NCBI GenBank assembly: GCA_963813025.1
Contig: CAWEXO010000014.1
Coordinates: forward strand, 64,001-128,000
Direction: 5' to 3'
Source: an uncultured Verrucomicrobiae bacterium
GTDB lineage: Bacteria > Verrucomicrobiota > Verrucomicrobiia > Chthoniobacterales > JAFAMB01
DNA: 64,000 nt
Below the pieces are notes generated by a model. The model was not told the origin of the DNA, did no database searches, and was given only the letters and a program-made list of their open reading frames with translations. Each line of letters opens with the position of its first letter. The first letter of the stretch is position 1. Below are positions 760 to 41,131 of the stretch, one piece after another. The position numbers were made by a program, and so were the translations under genes.

Positions 760-1239
760 TTGCCCCTCGAGGAGTTCAACCGCCAGCGAATAGTCGGAGT
801 GGTGTCGGATACCCACGGCTTGATCCGCGAAACCGTGTTAGCTACGCTTCAAGATGTCGATCTAATCCTTCACGCCGGTGATATCGGGTCCGCCGATGTT
901 TTGGAAACCTTGCGTAGAGTGGCTCCGGTTATCGCGGTCAAAGGAAATATCGATCATCAATATCCTGGCCTGGCGGACGGGGAACTCATTCGCATCAATG
1001 GAGACTTGATTTATTTATGGCACGATCTGGGAACGCTCGACCTCAATCCGCTGGTAGCGGGCATTCGAATCGTGATCACCGGGCATTCGCACCAGCCTCA
1101 GTTGCGAGAGCAAGGTGGTGTGATCTATCTCAATCCAGGCAGCGTTGGTCCGCGCCGTTTCCGAAACCCGATCTCAATGGCCAAGCTCCGCTGGCCAGCG
1201 GGGATTGTAAAAGCTGAGTTGATCCAGCTTGGGGAGTAG
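760..1239 (+). CDS. YfcE/MJ0936-family metallophosphoesterase
   Basis: Motifs SDTHG, HAGD, KGNID, TGHSH, NPGS; probable TTG start at 760 just after the upstream stop. Confidence 0.9.
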   Translation: MPLEEFNRQRIVGVVSDTHGLIRETVLATLQDVDLILHAGDIGSADVLETLRRVAPVIAVKGNIDHQYPGLADGELIRINGDLIYLWHDLGTLDLNPLVAGIRIVITGHSHQPQLREQGGVIYLNPGSVGPRRFRNPISMAKLRWPAGIVKAELIQLGE

Positions 1240-1349
1240 CTAGTTCCCCAGAACTCTGCGCGTTCTTTTTGCGGCAAGAAACACTGGATTGATCGCCTTG
1301 GGCATCTCGACGTAGAAAGTAGGCAGCAGTGGGTCGGCAGTTAAGACCG

Positions 1350-1500
1350 GTGTGGCATTGGAGCTTTATGCCCGATAGCTAGTTTGGTTCCGAGCGTTTT
1401 GGTTGTTGCATTAGCGAAGCTCCAGATCGGGTTGTTTGCCGATCTGGAGCTATCCTGTTTAGGAGATTTCTCTGTATCTACCAACTCGGGCCGATGCGCT
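1350..1500 (+). ncRNA. Predicted IS110 bridge RNA (boundaries approximate)
   Basis: Structured ~300-bp non-coding left end; TAGCTAG (1376-1382) equals left target+core; TTAGGAG (1459-1465) equals element right end+core; AACT (1483-1486) is complementary to core+left end; 13-bp hairpin 1418-1451. Confidence 0.65.
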
Positions 1501-1938
1501 GCAGTGTGAAAGCAAGAACAACATCTAACCCAAGAGAGGTATGGCAAAGAAAACCACGACCAAGCGAAAGAACAAATCAAAAACTCACCGGAGTGTTCTG
1601 GAACGGATCAATCTCAAGGCCGCAGGAATCGATATCGGGGCGAATTTTCACCTGGTGGCCATTCCCGAAGACCGCGGCTCAGAAACGGTGCGCAAGTTTG
1701 GCCCTTTTACGAGCGATCTGCAGCGGATGGCTGACTGGCTGAGCGAACACCACATTGAGACCGTAGTGATGGAATCAACGGGGGTTTATTGGATACCGGT
1801 GTTCCAGATTCTGGAGCAGAGAGGGTTGGAGGTAAAATTGGTCAACGCAGCTCATGTCAAGAATCTGCCTGGACGCAAAAGCGACGTCTCGGACTGCCAA
1901 TGGCTTCAACAACTCCACACCTTTGGTCTTTTAAACGG

Positions 1939-3354
1939 GAGATATTGTCAAAAGTTGTGTATCGGGGATGGGCGCATCCTTGTTAAAATGACTGGTTAGG
2001 CAGCTTGTTGGGTTTGTTCTTCGCCATCGACGAATCGGACACCAGTAACTACCTTTGGAATCAGTTCGAAGCCCTGAAGCCGGCGCCAATGCTTTTGGGC
2101 TTCCAGGCCGAGTTTAAAGACCATGGTCAGTGTTGCGATCCGTGAACCGGAACCCTTGGTTCGATGGGTTCGCAGCCGGACGGTAGCGAAGGTCGATTCG
2201 ATGGGATTGGTGGTCCGTAAATGCGGCCAATGTTGCGCCGGAAAGTCGTAAAAGGTAAACAGGACTTCTTTATCTTTCTGCAGGCATTCGCAGGCTTTTG
2301 GGAATTTGATTTGGTAACTGGAGATGAACTGATCGTAGGCTGCCAGAGCTGCTTTGCCGGTCGGCGCCAGGTACATTTCATGGATCAGTTGCTTGGCTTT
2401 GCCCTGAACGCTTTTGGGCATTTTATCCAGGATGTTGGCTGTCTTATGCACCCAGCAACGTTGTTGGGCGATCTGGGCCATATTCTTCCTGCAGAGCGAT
2501 CCAGAAGCCGAGCGAACCATCACCGATGGCCAGTTTCGGCGCGCCGGACAGCCCCAGGCGTTTGAGCTGCCCAAGCAGTTCACGCCAGGATTGAGCGCTT
2601 TCGCGATACCCGTCGACAACAGCTAACAGTTCTTTGGTGCCATCTTCGGTGGCTCCGATCAAGACCAGCACACAGGTTCGCTCTTCGTCGAGCCGGACGT
2701 TGAAATAGACTCCGTCGGCCCACCAGTAAACGTAACGCTTCTGACTCAAGTCGCGCTGACTCCAGGCCTTGTAATCTGCTTTCCCAACCCGCTCTTGAGT
2801 CGGACGATATTGGTTGCTGAAAGCCCACTGGCTCCTTCGCCCAAAATCGCTGTCAACGCTTCGCTGAAATCTCCGGTCGAGATCCCTTTCAGGTAAAGGG
2901 CTGGAATCAGAGCATCGACGCTGGGAGCCCGACGCATATACTTGGGCAGAATCGCACTGGAAAATCGACCCTTGTCACGATGCCGGACCCGTGGCTGACG
3001 AACTCGGATCGGACCAACTCCACTGACGACCTCCCGCTCCGGCAGATGTCCATTGCGTACCACCAACCGCTGTCCATTCTCATCCCGTCGATCCTTGTGG
3101 AATCTGGATATAGTCGATCACCTCATTCTCGATCGCCGCCTGTAACAGCTTCCTGGCTCCTTCTTGCAGCAACTGCTCCAGGAATGGCTTTTCTTCATCT
3201 TTTGCTCGCTCATCAAGCGAGACCACTTTACTCTCTGGCACTGGTGCATCCTTTCTTTTTGGCGCCCTCGAGTGAGGCCGCCGTCGTTTCTTTTTCTTGT
3301 TGAAAGGATGCGCCTTTCTTTTATCTCCTCATACACAAATTTCGGTTATACCTC
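1939..3354 (-). mobile_element. IS256-family insertion sequence (1416 bp)
   Basis: Terminal IRs GAGATATTGTCAAAAGTTGTGTAT / GAGGTATAACCGAAATTTGTGTAT (18/24); 9-bp TSD TTTAAACGG at 1930-1938 and 3355-3363. Confidence 0.95.
1996..3241 (-). pseudogene. IS256 transposase, frameshifted in this sequence
   Basis: Fragments VVRNGHLPERE, LYLKGISTGDF, YWWADGVYFNVR, GDGSLGFW, QRCWVHK, RTTNPIESTF lie in different frames. Confidence 0.9.
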
Positions 3355-4389
3355 TTTAAACGGCTCGTTCCGACCCAAGGACGAGGTCTGCGTCTTGCGC
3401 AGCTTCCTGCGCCTGCGCGACACCTTGGTTAAGGACTGCAGCAGCCATGTGTTACGCATGCAGAAGGCCTTAACCGAAATGAATATCCAAGTGCACCGCG
3501 TGTTGAGCGACATCACCGGTTATAGTGGCATGGCGATGATTCGGGCGATTTTGGCCGGAGAACGCAATCCGCTCAAGCTTGCCCAGATGAAACACCCCCA
3601 AGTGAAAGCATCCACTGATCAGATCGTCAAAGCCTTACAGGGAGATTACCGAGCCGAGCATCTCTTCGCCTTGCAAACGGCCCTGGAACTCTATGACACC
3701 TACCAGCTCAAGATCACCGCCTGCGAAAGCAAGATTGAGCAACAACTTGAGCAATTCGACACTAAACTAGATTTGGAGCAAGCCCTCGAGCAAAGCGGGG
3801 CGGCCCAAGCACGGTCGGCCCAAGTTCGCCTAGCCCTGCAGCGCCGAGCGCATCTGGCCAGCGTTTGTGGTGTCGATCTGAGTCAGTTGCCTGGCTTGAG
3901 CACCTTGGCGGTGGAAGTCATCATTTCGGAAACGGGTTTAGACATGACCTGTTGGAAAAGCGAAAAACACTTTTGCTCCTGGCTTAAACTCTGTCCGGAC
4001 AATCGCATCAGCGGCGGCAAACTGCTCAGTTCCAGCCCCAGAAAAACCAAGAATCGCGCGGCGGCCATGTTCCGGCTGGCGGCCCAAGGAGCCATGCAAA
4101 GTAAGACGGCCATCGGCGCTTTTATCCGCCGCATCAAAGCCCGATTGGGGGCACCCACCGCCATCAACGCCGGAGCTCATAAACTGGCACGCTTGTTCTA
4201 TCGCATGCTCAAGTTCGGAGTTGCCTATGTCGAGCAAGGGCAACTCTACTACGAGAAAAAAATACAAAGACCGCCTACTTCACAATCTCAGCCGACGAGC
4301 CAAAGAATTCGGACTCCAACTCACGCCTCTAGACCCAGCCACGGATTTAGTTTCTTAGGAGCCGTTAGCTGGCGCCAGTGCTAGTGCTA

Positions 4390-5513
4390 GTGCCTAATTG
4401 CGTAAGTTAGTTATATGTATGGCGACTTTCCCCTGGTGTACCTGGGATTTGGTCCATTCGAAGGGAGCCGCATTGTTATTGTAGTTCTTGATGAAGGTGT
4501 CGATGGCGTTGCGCAGCTCTGCCACGCTGGTGAAGTTTGCCCCCTGGAGGGCTTGGCGGCTCAAGATACTAAACCAGATCTCAATCTGGTTGAGCCAAGA
4601 AGCGTGGGTTGGAGTGAAATGAAAATGCACATTGGGGTGAGCCTTCAACCAGCGATCTTGCTTTGGCTTATGGGTCGCAAGGTTGTCTAAGACCACATGA
4701 ATTTCTTTGTCGAGATTTCCGGCAACTACCTGGTTCATAAACTCCAGGAATTCCCGTCGGCGCTGGCGCCGGTAATGACCAGCCTGCACTTGGCCGCTGG
4801 CAATGTTGAGGGCGGCAAAGAGAGTGGAGGTGCCATGGCGCTTGTACTCGTGGCTAAAACCCGTCAGCGCCCTGCCATTGGGCAAGCGAATCCAACCTTG
4901 GGCTCTTTCCAGGGCTTGAATGGCTGGTTTTTCATCAATGGCCAAGATGAGCGCATTCTGGGGCGGATTGAGATAAAGACCGACAATGTCAGCGGCCTTG
5001 CGCACAAACTCCGGATCGGTGGAAATGCACCAGCTGCGGCGCCGTTCCAATTCAATGCCTTGTTGGCGCAAAATGCGCCAGACTTGATCGGAGGAAACAT
5101 CGGCCAGACTCTGCGCCAGCAGTCGCCCATTCCAGCGCCCGTAGCCCGCCGGTGGATCTTCATCCAGCAGCGCCAAGACCCGCTTGACCGTCATTTGATC
5201 ATACTTGGCCGGCTTTCCACTGCGTGGCGCGTCTTCCAAGCCAGCCAGGCCTTGGCGCACAAAGCGCCGCCGCCATTTACTCACCGTCACCTCGGGAATG
5301 CGCAGGCTCTTGGCAATCGCACGTCCACTCAAGCCCGCTGCCGCCTTCAAGATAATCTGACTCCTGACCTTGAGCCGGTGTTCGACCCGTTGCGCTCGAC
5401 TCCAACCCTCCAAGAGCTTGCGGTTTTCCACAGAAAGTTTGATGCGACCCGTTGCCATCCATCCAACAAATCATAATTTTTCATAAATATAAAGAACTAA
5501 AGCAACTAAGTAC
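4390..5513 (-). mobile_element. IS630-family insertion sequence (1124 bp)
   Basis: Terminal IRs about 20/27 identical (GTGCCTAATTGCGTAAGTT.. / GTACTTAGTTGCTTTAGTT..); duplicated TA at 4388-4389 and 5514-5515. Confidence 0.92.
4394..5458 (-). CDS. IS630 transposase (intact)
   Basis: N-terminal HTH; AIDEKP, YKRHGT, VLDNLATHK, SWLNQIEIWF motifs. Confidence 0.95.
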   Translation of the reverse strand: MATGRIKLSVENRKLLEGWSRAQRVEHRLKVRSQIILKAAAGLSGRAIAKSLRIPEVTVSKWRRRFVRQGLAGLEDAPRSGKPAKYDQMTVKRVLALLDEDPPAGYGRWNGRLLAQSLADVSSDQVWRILRQQGIELERRRSWCISTDPEFVRKAADIVGLYLNPPQNALILAIDEKPAIQALERAQGWIRLPNGRALTGFSHEYKRHGTSTLFAALNIASGQVQAGHYRRQRRREFLEFMNQVVAGNLDKEIHVVLDNLATHKPKQDRWLKAHPNVHFHFTPTHASWLNQIEIWFSILSRQALQGANFTSVAELRNAIDTFIKNYNNNAAPFEWTKSQVHQGKVAIHITNLRN

Positions 5514-40507: not shown

Positions 40508-40629
40508 CTCCTAAGAAACTGGATAAGGCCGGTCTAATAAAGTTAGCTCTTCCTAAGAGCCAAACAGCCCCCAATCGAGAACTCGGATGGTTTCTTGCCG
40601 CAACAAGAACCCGCAGCGGTTCTGGGGAA
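40508..40629 (-). mobile_element. 122-bp non-autonomous IS110-derived mini-element, copy 1 (includes one CT/AG core)
   Basis: Reverse complement begins TTCCCCAGAACCGCTGCGGGTTCTTGTTGCGGCAAGAAAC (36/40 to 1244-1282) and ends AGTTTCTTAGGAG (13/13 to 4349-4361). Confidence 0.92.
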
Positions 40630-40751
40630 CTCCTAAGAAACTGGATAAGGCCGGTCTAATAAAGTTAGCTCTTCCTAAGAGCCAAACAGCCCCCAATCGA
40701 GAACTCGGATGGTTTCTTGCCGCAACAAGAACCCGCAGCGGTTCTGGGGAA
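40630..40751 (-). mobile_element. 122-bp IS110-derived mini-element, copy 2 (identical tandem copy; closing core at 40752-40753)
   Basis: Base-for-base identical to 40508-40629. Confidence 0.9.
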
Positions 40752-41131
40752 CTAGCTAAGCTTCTCGGACTATGCGAATCCGGTCTCGGTGTCGTGCCCC
40801 AGACCGAAAATGGCTTTGATCCTCTGGCTGCCACCTATCCTGTGACGGCTTTGCCGATCACGCTCCGCCGGATTCAAACAGGGGATTATCGGCTCCAGGA
40901 CTTTGTCGCGGAACTAGTCCAGCAGGGCTTGGTCGTCCTCTACCCGGTTTCGCCAAGAGAAAAGAAGCTCCTGCAGAACTGGAATTGGCCGAGCGATGTT
41001 TTCTTACGGTTTGATCCCGAAAATCGGGAGTGATTTCAGCACGGACTCCGTCACCCCGAAGATCAAGGGGATGGTTACAACCAGCCAGACTGCTATTAGC
41101 TCGGCTGGCGAACTTGGGCGTTCTTCTGATT

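What the first reader, a model, noticed from the sequence alone, without database searches (positions are those of the whole stretch)
1350..1500. Bridge RNA with readable target and donor guides, cross-checked by two independent insertion sites
Seen: TAGCTAG at 1376-1382 is identical to left target+core at both insertions (1237-1243 and the reverse complement of 40752-40758). It sits inside stems TGGAGCTT/AAGCTCCA (1359-1366/1417-1424) and ATGC/GCAT. Downstream, TTAGGAG (1459-1465) equals right end+core, and AACT (1483-1486) is complementary to core+left end AGTT, flanked by a CCTG/CGGG stem. Established: the order target-binding loop then donor-binding loop, with left guides identical to the top strand, is the IS621 bridge RNA layout. 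Inference: an AG-core bridge system. The right targets differ (AG-CCGT versus AG-AAAA), so right-side specificity looks relaxed; the candidate right guide region is the U/G-rich GTTTTGGTTGTT. A competing 13-bp hairpin (1418-1451) would disrupt the target loop and could be regulatory.
Basis: partly seen in the sequence, partly recalled or inferred. Interest (0 to 1): 0.88.

Follow-up and report, generated by a model that had tools for sequence, protein, structure and literature searches.

The report
Bridge RNA of an IS110 element
The left end of a broken IS110-family insertion sequence encodes a bridge RNA whose target and donor guides can be read off the sequence; this is a known kind of system, here in a distant subfamily whose loops are arranged differently from the IS621 model.

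Summary
TAGCTAG (1376-1382) and TTAGGAG (1459-1465) lie in the 297-nt non-coding left end of an IS110-family element (window 1244-4361). They equal the left flank plus core and the right end plus core. The guide reading holds in relatives. Of 50 distinct homologous RNAs, 24 have their own heptamer 7/7 and 17 have it 6/7 at the element's left boundary (controls 0% and 4.7%). The donor heptamer sits at the right end in 39 of 45 (control 2.8%). All guides end in AG, the core.

Its stems pair no better than shuffles (58.2% against 57.4%). The "competing" hairpin 1418-1451 is a constant part of the fold, present in 49 of 49 relatives. AACT and GTTTTGGTTGTT lie largely in conserved RNA helices and are not guides.

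A weak right-target guide sits at 1351-1356, 5' of the left guide, the reverse of the IS621 order. No right-donor guide was found. The second "insertion" is two tandem 122-bp mini elements. The window copy's transposase gene is broken, and 13 copies exist in the genome. Transcription is untested. Verdict: a new member of a known kind, with a variant architecture.

The parts
1237..1243 (+). Left target TAGCT plus core AG of this insertion. TAG 1237-1239 is also the stop codon of the upstream ORF 703-1239.
   Evidence: 8 of 13 full copies in the genome have TAGCTAG here and 2 have TAACTAG.
1244..4361 (+). IS110-family element. Intact copies are 1692 bp. This copy is split by an IS256-family insertion at 1939-3354 (TSD TTTAAACGG 1930-1938/3355-3363). 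It also carries a +1 A near 4256 that shifts the frame.
1244..1282 (+). Terminal 39 nt of the left end, kept in the mini elements. It holds the inverted repeat AGAAC 1250-1254 / GTTCT 1262-1266 and GAAAC 1278-1282. GAAAC is the inverted partner of GTTTC 4350-4354 at the right end (sub-terminal inverted repeat).
   Evidence: In one search the reverse complement of the 5 nt before the right-end guide match lies at 32-42 nt in the left end in 24 of 28 relatives, and it covaries (GTTAT/ATAAC, GTTAC/GTAAC, GTTGC/GCAAC).
1333..1495 (+). Structured core of the bridge RNA, closed by helix P1 (1333-1338 with 1490-1495). The RNA ends are unknown.
   Evidence: Covariation (P1: 6 of 6 pairs changed on both sides). 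MFE fold -82.9 kcal/mol, z -5.4. CM R1 scores 133 bits here.
1345..1389 (+). Target-binding module. Helix P_T (1345-1349 with 1385-1389) encloses the right target guide, hairpin P2 (1358-1364 with 1370-1375) and the left target guide.
   Evidence: P_T 98.7% paired, 3 of 5 pairs changed on both sides; P2 89.9% paired.
1351..1356 (+). Right target guide (weak). C1356 pairs with core G. [quoted passage not shown]
   Evidence: 63 of 125 Watson-Crick matches in 25 distinct guides against 34.3 +/- 5.0 when flanks are permuted (0 of 5000 permutations reach it). The C opposite core G is present in 33 of 35.
1376..1382 (+). Left target guide TAGCT plus core AG, identical to the top strand of the left flank.
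1383..1384 (+). Two bases after the core (TT), identical to the first two bases of the element's left end.
   Evidence: identical in 24 of 27 relatives that have an exact guide match.
1390..1489 (+). Donor-binding module. Helix A/B (1390-1394 with 1485-1489) and short helix P_D (1399-1403 with 1480-1484) enclose hairpin P3 (base 1410-1414 with 1454-1458; distal stem 1418-1430 with 1439-1451) and the left donor guide.
   Evidence: A/B 89.5% paired, 5 of 5 pairs changed on both sides; P3 base 93.1%; distal stem 86.3%, 11 of 11. P_D: 55.2%, but own against cross pairing gives p<0.0002. A hairpin is present in 49 of 49 relatives.
1459..1465 (+). Left donor guide TTAGG plus core AG, identical to the element's right end 4355-4361.
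   Evidence: (39 of 45 exact; control 2.8%).
1541..1938 (+). 5' part of the transposase gene. The intact protein is 463 aa (P0001).
3364..4358 (+). 3' part of the transposase gene. In intact copies the stop TAG (4356-4358) lies inside the right-end guide match, so the right end has no non-coding room.
4355..4361 (+). Right end TTAGG plus core AG (left donor plus core).
40508..40758 (-). TAGCTAG (40752-40758) followed by two tandem 122-bp mini elements (40751-40630 and 40629-40508). Each has about 39 nt of left end and ends in AGTTTCTTAGGAG. Neither has a bridge RNA or a transposase gene.

Best explanation
Window 1244-1540 is the non-coding left end of an IS110-family insertion sequence. It encodes a bridge RNA with a structured core at about 1333-1495.

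How it works:
- The RNA would bind the element's DEDD/serine recombinase (463 aa in intact copies).
- A short segment 5' of it (1351-1356) pairs loosely with the top strand of core G plus the right flank.
- Recombination at the shared AG then places the element after TAGCTAG.

What is shown: guide and flank covary, and the RNA fold is conserved with compensatory changes. What is inferred from the IS621 work: transcription, protein binding, the strand that is paired, and the cleavage site.

The window's own copy has an intact RNA gene but a doubly broken transposase gene, so it could act only with protein from the intact copies elsewhere in the genome.
For: Family:
- P0001 matches Pfam DEDD_Tnp_IS110 (6.3e-20) and Transposase_20 (6.6e-07).
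- It matches NCBIfam NF033542 'IS110 family RNA-guided transposase' at 247 bits, cut-off 140.

Own genome: there are 13 full copies. The left flank is TAGCTAG in 8 of them and TAACTAG in 2. All 13 end in TTAGGAG.

Sister lineage as a natural reprogramming test:
- L023 (79% aa identity) carries TTAGGAG at the target-guide position and TTAAGAG at the donor-guide position.
- All 8 of 8 of its insertions sit after TTAGGAG or TTAAGAG.
- 6 of 6 of its minis end in TTAAGAG.

Family-wide guide matches:
- Of 50 distinct RNAs with enough upstream DNA, the own target heptamer is found at 110-165 nt upstream 7/7 in 24 and 6/7 in 17.
- With clearly different guides the rates are 0% and 4.7% of 2401 trials.
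- The donor heptamer is at the right end in 39 of 45, against a control of 66 of 2330.
- 42 different target heptamers and 17 donor heptamers were seen; all those listed end in AG.

RNA-level signs:
- Of 17 single mismatches, 8 are guide G opposite target A, which is an rG.dT wobble on the bottom strand. The reverse type occurs once.
- The proposed fold pairs in 90.2% of cells against 78.6% in shuffles and 24-52% when slid, with 159 double-sided changes against 54.
- After CM realignment the figures are 85.6% against 68.8%.
Against: - No transcript evidence: no RNA run holds the stretch.
- No sigma-70-like promoter was found in the left end or at a natural RE-LE junction.
- Rfam 15 gives no match.
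- No right donor guide was found.
- Nine of 50 relatives show only 4-5 of 7 at the expected distance.
- The left boundary in single-copy relatives was located with the guide itself, so those counts are not fully independent. They are backed by the fixed distance, by the two following bases and by the multi-copy genomes.
- Related sequences share ancestry, so shuffle controls overstate significance.
- The window copy cannot make its own transposase.
Confidence: 0.93

Rival explanations
1. The region is only a structured 5' leader that controls transposase expression. The heptamer matches to the flanks are coincidence.
For: It lies directly upstream of the transposase start at 1541. It folds strongly. 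Its hairpin followed by a T-rich run scores as terminator-like. No transcript ends are known.
Against: Coincidence cannot give 41 of 50 relatives with 6-7 of 7 matches at a fixed distance, using 42 different heptamers. It also cannot explain the paired change of guide and insertion sites in L023. A leader role could exist alongside the guide role.
Confidence: 0.03
2. The match is read at the DNA level. The recombinase would recognise the same heptamers as double-stranded DNA inside the left end and at the target, with no RNA involved.
For: Sequence identity alone does not tell RNA from DNA. Expression is untested.
Against: The region keeps helices through compensatory and G-U changes on the + strand. 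Mismatches are skewed to guide G opposite target A, 8 of 17 against 1 for the reverse, which fits RNA-DNA wobble and not duplex-duplex identity. The protein belongs to the family shown to be RNA-guided (PMC11208160, passages read).
Confidence: 0.03
3. It is a bridge RNA folded, in the IS621 manner. An outer stem 1359-1371/1408-1424 would enclose the target loop, and the hairpin 1418-1451 would be an alternative regulatory fold.
For: The 8-bp and 4-bp complements exist in this sequence and its close relatives.
Against: Across 49 relatives these pairs form in 58.2% of cells against 57.4% in shuffles, with no excess of double-sided changes: 15 against 12.4. The hairpin is present in 49 of 49 and covaries at 11 of 11 pairs. 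The MFE fold of the window sequence also chooses the hairpin.
Confidence: 0.04

Closest known systems
IS621 bridge RNA and recombinase (E. coli; Durrant et al. 2024, PMC11208160; Hiraizumi et al. 2024, PMC11208158; passages and one section read)
   Same: - The RNA is encoded in the left end, upstream of a DEDD_Tnp_IS110 plus Transposase_20 recombinase.
- There are two modules, target first and donor second.
- The left guides are identical to the top strand and include a 2-nt core.
- An rG.dT wobble is tolerated.
- The right target guide is short.
   Different: - The protein is only distantly related (phmmer E 4.1e-05 to 8wt6_A; 463 aa against a 328-aa chain).
- The core is AG, not CT.
- The left guides have 5+2 nt, not 7+2.
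- In IS621 the order is stem, LTG (50-58), stem loop, RTG (77-80), stem. Here it is stem, RTG, hairpin, LTG, stem.
- Both modules hang on a three-way junction closed by P1.
- No right donor guide was found.
- Two bases after the target-guide core copy the first two bases of the left end.
CazIS110-1 of Caloranaerobacter azorensis (Sun et al. 2025 preprint, 10.1101/2025.10.25.684509; passages read)
   Same: It is a multi-copy natural IS110. Its target loop is described as pairing with the LT-RD junction and its donor loop with the LD-RT junction. Tandem repeats were seen as by-products.
   Different: No sequence comparison was made here. The figures were not visible.
Expanded IS110 loci with tandem modules and tandem non-coding repeat units (preprint 10.64898/2026.08.14.744561; passages read)
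   Same: Head-to-tail full copies and short non-coding units lie next to IS110 elements. The repeat-unit boundaries keep the left-donor match.
   Different: Here some lineages carry a target guide that equals the conserved right end of related elements. That by itself would produce head-to-tail insertion. This explanation was not found in the passages read.
IS1111 group / seekRNA elements
   Same: Same recombinase family. Sub-terminal inverted repeats are present.
   Different: In IS1111 the RNA lies in a long right end and the repeats are 7-17 bp (PMC11208160, section 12). Here the right end is coding to within 3 nt of its tip and the repeat is 5 bp.

Membership tests
IS110-family bridge RNA system (IS110 group) | Recombinase with a DEDD RuvC-like domain and a Tnp (Transposase_20) domain | tested here: met
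   Pfam PF01548 6.3e-20 and PF02371 6.6e-07. NF033542 247 bits against a cut-off of 140. A serine aligns with the conserved SG of the IS621 chain; the numbering offset is assumed, so this point is inference.
IS110-family bridge RNA system (IS110 group) | Long non-coding left end upstream of the recombinase gene, and a short right end | tested here: met
   The left end is 297 nt (1244-1540). The stop codon lies 3 nt from the right tip.
IS110-family bridge RNA system (IS110 group) | RNA segment identical to left target plus core, covarying with the flank (LTG) | tested here: met
   24 of 50 at 7/7 and 17 of 50 at 6/7; controls 0% and 4.7%. Own genome. The L023 switch.
IS110-family bridge RNA system (IS110 group) | RNA segment identical to the right end plus core (LDG) | tested here: met
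   39 of 45 exact; control 2.8%. 13 of 13 copies in the genome.
IS110-family bridge RNA system (IS110 group) | The same core dinucleotide at target and donor, contained in the guides | tested here: met
   All target and donor heptamers listed end in AG. The flanks show AG on both sides.
IS110-family bridge RNA system (IS110 group) | Right target guide complementary to the top strand of core plus right flank | tested here: met
   63 of 125 against 34.3 +/- 5.0 permuted. The signal is weak in the own genome: pyrimidine at the first flank base in 10 of 13. It sits 5' of the LTG, not 3'.
IS110-family bridge RNA system (IS110 group) | Right donor guide complementary to the top strand of core plus left end | tested here: inconclusive
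   No region of the RNA pairs better with its own left end than with others' (p 0.24-0.57). There is no consistent position. One weak offset signal appears.
IS110-family bridge RNA system (IS110 group) | Transcribed as a non-coding RNA that binds the recombinase | not testable with these tools
   No RNA run is listed. No promoter-like site was found.
IS621-type bridge RNA fold | Each loop ordered stem, left guide, stem loop, right guide, stem | tested here: not met
Here the order is P_T, RTG, P2, LTG, P_T. IS621 has LTG at 50-58 before RTG at 77-80.
Rfam families | Match to a curated covariance model | tested here: not met
   Only a chance hit appeared in 1100-4600 at E<=10. Whether Rfam 15 holds a bridge RNA model was not checked.
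IS1111 group (RNA in the right end) | Long non-coding right end with the RNA, and STIRs of 7-17 bp | tested here: not met
   The right end is coding. The STIR is 5 bp.

The most novel reading that the evidence does not exclude
This widespread, IS621-distant subfamily occurs in Verrucomicrobiae, cyanobacteria, delta-proteobacterial and other MAGs. It uses a bridge RNA whose loops are circular permutations of the IS621 loops: right guide, capped hairpin, left guide, all inside a basal stem. Both modules are joined on a three-way junction.

The other proposed features are:
- Only about 7 nt of firm target reading.
- No RNA guide for the right donor side.
- A 2-nt extension of the target guide that reads the incoming left end.
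- The right donor side defined instead by a DNA hairpin and a GTTTC/GAAAC sub-terminal repeat.

Several lineages have set their target guide to the conserved right end of sister elements. They therefore insert head-to-tail behind them and behind 57-122-bp mini elements that they can presumably mobilise.
Probability: 0.35. Interest if true: 0.55.

Novelty: new member of a known kind. Interest (0 to 1): 0.4.

Why it matters
Bridge RNAs are the programmable part of IS110 recombinases, which are being developed as genome-writing tools. This case adds no new principle. It does give a clean natural data set: 42 different target guides in one fold, a sister pair that differs in both guides with matching insertion sites, and mini elements that define a donor of about 50 bp.

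If the reversed loop order and the missing right donor guide hold up, they show that the guide loops tolerate circular permutation. They would also show that one donor arm can be read without RNA. Both points bear on engineering and on how the two IS110 groups diverged. A preprint of October 2026 reports 86 bridge RNA models, many deviating from the IS621 fold (10.64898/2026.10.21.760802, section 2.4 read). Its supplementary figures could not be seen, so this architecture may already be catalogued there.

Tried and rejected
- Rfam scan of 1100-4600 at E<=10 gave only a chance lncRNA hit.
- Sigma-70 promoter scans of 1100-1700 and of a natural RE-LE junction in L023 found none. The hairpin 1418-1451 scores as terminator-like, but it is an internal conserved helix.
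- Sequencing runs: no RNA holder is listed. Contigs of three soil metagenome runs were laid on 1000-2000. They showed no joints. They confirmed only that a contig starts at 1242 and that intact copies read on past 1938.
- Right donor guide: ungapped duplex scans of the whole RNA against core plus left end gave no consistent position. Own-against-cross tests for five RNA regions gave p 0.24-0.57. The segment symmetric to the right target guide (1404-1409) showed no signal at the expected offset and a weak one at another.
- Helix P_D pairs in only 55.2% of cells in the CM alignment. It is kept as a short helix because of the register-free test.
- One search was a trial alignment of no use.
- The script stopped with an error after 28 rows. 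The count of 24 of 28 is from those rows.
- The search of earlier findings returned nothing for this place.
- No structure prediction or complex prediction was run.

Full report
**What is at the site**

Window 1244-4361 (+) is an IS110-family insertion sequence. It starts TTCCCCAGAAC directly after TAGCTAG (1237-1243) and ends ...GTTTCTTAGGAG at 4361.

The genome that holds the window has 13 near-identical or related full copies. Intact ones are 1692 bp and encode a 463-aa protein, P0001. P0001 carries DEDD_Tnp_IS110 and Transposase_20. It scores 247 bits on NCBIfam NF033542, 'IS110 family RNA-guided transposase', whose cut-off is 140. It is only distantly like the solved IS621 recombinase (E 4.1e-05).

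The window copy is broken twice. An IS256-family element sits at 1939-3354 with a 9-bp duplication, and an extra A near 4256 shifts the frame. Its 297-nt left end differs from the consensus copy at two bases, 1294 and 1474. Neither lies in a helix or a guide.

**The observation**

In the 64-kb window TAGCTAG occurs three times and TTAGGAG four times. Every occurrence is a flank, an element end or the internal copy.

The 'second insertion' is a pair of tandem 122-bp mini elements at 40508-40751 (-). Each keeps about 39 nt of left end and 13 nt of right end.

**Are the two heptamers guides?**

Three lines of evidence say yes.

1. The own genome. The left flank is TAGCTAG in 8 of 13 full copies and TAACTAG in 2. 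The others are GGCTTAG, TAGCAAG and one copy with an unclear boundary. All 13 end in TTAGGAG. The right flanks are not conserved. With the minis, 17 elements were listed. Ten follow TAGCTAG and three follow another element's TTAGGAG.

2. A sister lineage acts as a natural reprogramming test. L023 (79% protein identity) has TTAGGAG in place of TAGCTAG and TTAAGAG in place of TTAGGAG. In its genome all 8 of 8 insertions of this type (2 full copies, 6 minis) follow TTAGGAG or TTAAGAG. All 6 of 6 minis and one of the two full copies examined end in TTAAGAG; the other full copy ends in TTAGGAG.

3. The wider family. 78 loci encoding relatives at 44-88% identity were fetched. Nearly all share one RNA scaffold in which only the two heptamers and a few linkers vary.
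   - Of 50 distinct RNAs with enough upstream DNA, the own target heptamer occurs at 110-165 nt upstream 7/7 in 24 and 6/7 in 17. With clearly different guides the rates are 0% and 4.7% of 2401 trials.
   - The donor heptamer lies at the right end in 39 of 45, against 66 of 2330 for foreign guides.
   - 42 different target heptamers and 17 donor heptamers were seen. All those listed end in AG, so AG is the core of the whole subfamily.
   - Among 17 single mismatches, 8 are guide G opposite target A and one is the reverse. That skew is what pairing of the RNA with the bottom strand through rG.dT predicts. Hiraizumi et al. saw such a pair in IS621.

A caveat applies to the third line. In single-copy relatives the left boundary was found with the guide itself. 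The fixed distance, the agreement of the next two bases and the multi-copy genomes back it up.

**The fold**

The conserved fold differs. Its helices are:
- P1: 1333-1338 with 1490-1495.
- P_T: 1345-1349 with 1385-1389.
- P2: 1358-1364 with 1370-1375.
- A/B: 1390-1394 with 1485-1489.
- P3 base: 1410-1414 with 1454-1458.
- P3 distal stem: 1418-1430 with 1439-1451.

On the MAFFT alignment four of these helices (P1, P2, A/B and the P3 base) pair in 90.2% of cells. Shuffles give 78.6% and slid partners give 24-52%. There are 159 double-sided changes against 54. After realignment with a covariance model, seven helices pair in 85.6% of cells against 68.8%.

A short helix P_D (1399-1403 with 1480-1484) is weak in that alignment (55.2%). 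A register-free test supports it: own mean 4.38 against cross 3.82, p<0.0002.

The MFE fold of the window sequence contains P1, A/B and this hairpin (-82.9 kcal/mol, z -5.4).

AACT (1483-1486) lies half in P_D and half in A/B. GTTTTGGTTGTT holds the 5' strand of P_D. Neither follows the flanks in relatives.

**Right-hand guides**

The eight bases between P_T and P2 end in CA. The C faces core G in 33 of 35 relatives. The five bases before it are complementary to the first five bases of the right flank in 18, 20, 19, 19 and 15 of 35, against 9-11 expected. Collapsed to 25 distinct sequences, this is 63 of 125 against 34.3 +/- 5.0.

In the window this guide is 1351-1356, and its best site would be CCACA. 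The 13 copies show C or T at the first flank base in 10 and CCA in 3. So right-side reading exists but is loose.

The order is therefore right guide, hairpin, left guide inside a basal stem. IS621 has stem, left guide (50-58), stem loop, right guide (77-80), stem. The two layouts are related by circular permutation of the loop. This is my inference.

Two bases after the target-guide core (1383-1384) equal the first two bases of the left end in 24 of 27 relatives. The RNA thus matches the left junction over nine bases. No right donor guide was found.

The donor DNA itself has conserved features: a hairpin near the start of the left end and a 5-bp inverted repeat. The repeat is GTTTC next to the right-end guide match and GAAAC at 32-42 nt in the left end. 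It is present in 24 of 28 rows and covaries. The minis keep exactly this part.

**Not shown**

- Transcription, RNA ends and promoter are all untested.
- Rfam has no match.

**Literature**

- Bridge RNAs of IS110 elements are established. Diverse folds were predicted for 85.7% of IS110-group elements (PMC11208160, passages and section 12 read).
- Tandem IS110 modules and tandem non-coding units are described in 10.64898/2026.08.14.744561 (passages read).
- Donor-only 'half-match' recombination is described in 10.64898/2026.08.31.748434 (abstract read).
- 86 bridge RNA models, many unlike IS621, were reported in 10.64898/2026.10.21.760802 (section 2.4 read; supplements closed).
- A search for bridge RNA, permut* and IS110 listed nothing on permuted loops.

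**Verdict**

The finding is a correct identification of a known kind of system. The variant architecture may or may not already be catalogued.

Noticed in passing
window 40508-40758 (-); own genome C13:343228 and C14:37100-37220: Mini elements of 115-122 bp consist of about 39 nt of left end plus a right end, with no RNA or transposase gene. There are five in the genome. Four are in head-to-tail pairs, and one pair sits directly behind a full copy.
   Followed up: partly
L023/L097-L106 (genome G001); L040, L043, L045, L048, L051, L056, L057, L086: Nine lineages carry a target guide equal or nearly equal to the conserved right end of related elements (TTAGGAG, TTAGAAG, TTAAGAG). They sit directly behind GTTTC/GTTAC plus that heptamer. 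The neighbour is a full relative in L045 and L023 and a mini in L043. This amounts to tail-targeting that builds head-to-tail arrays.
   Followed up: partly
L097, L103, L104, L106 (genome G001): Micro elements of 57 bp (TTCCTCAGAAC...CCTTA[A/G]GAG) sit after TAACTAG or TAATTAG, the target type of the window's element. Each has a larger element inserted behind it.
   Followed up: no
window 1939-3354 (-), TSD 1930-1938 / 3355-3363: An IS256-family element is inserted in the IS110 transposase gene. Its own reading frame is in pieces: several ORFs of 100-207 aa, and NF033543 scores 109 bits, below the cut-off of 150.
   Followed up: partly
window 4394-5458 (-): An intact-looking IS630-family transposase gene (NF033545, 252 bits) starts 33 nt beyond the IS110 right end.
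   Followed up: no
window about 205-268 and 4375-4392; own genome C9:95551: Hexamer tandem repeats (GTGCTA/GTGCCG units) contain CTAG. One IS110 copy sits inside such an array, and a CTAG-rich array also flanks a mini in L103.
   Followed up: no
window 1237-1239; own genome C13:326054 and C14:331246; L104: The target overlaps the stop codon of the upstream ORF 703-1239. Two other copies, and a relative's site, lie in TAACTAACTAG followed by a CCAAGGGCTTCGCCCTTG-type hairpin. Multi-frame stop motifs at gene ends may be the natural landing sites.
   Followed up: no
window 1335-1475, runs X2 and X3: Contigs from two other soil metagenome runs match only the bridge RNA core at 90-99%. One has G>A at 1378, which would make the guide TAACTAG. 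These are contigs of other organisms, so the evidence is weak.
   Followed up: no
own genome C14:486490 and C9:180483: Two diverged copies of 1704 bp exist. One is 87% identical with the same guides and target. The other starts GTCCCC after CTAACTCA, so its left boundary is unclear.
   Followed up: no
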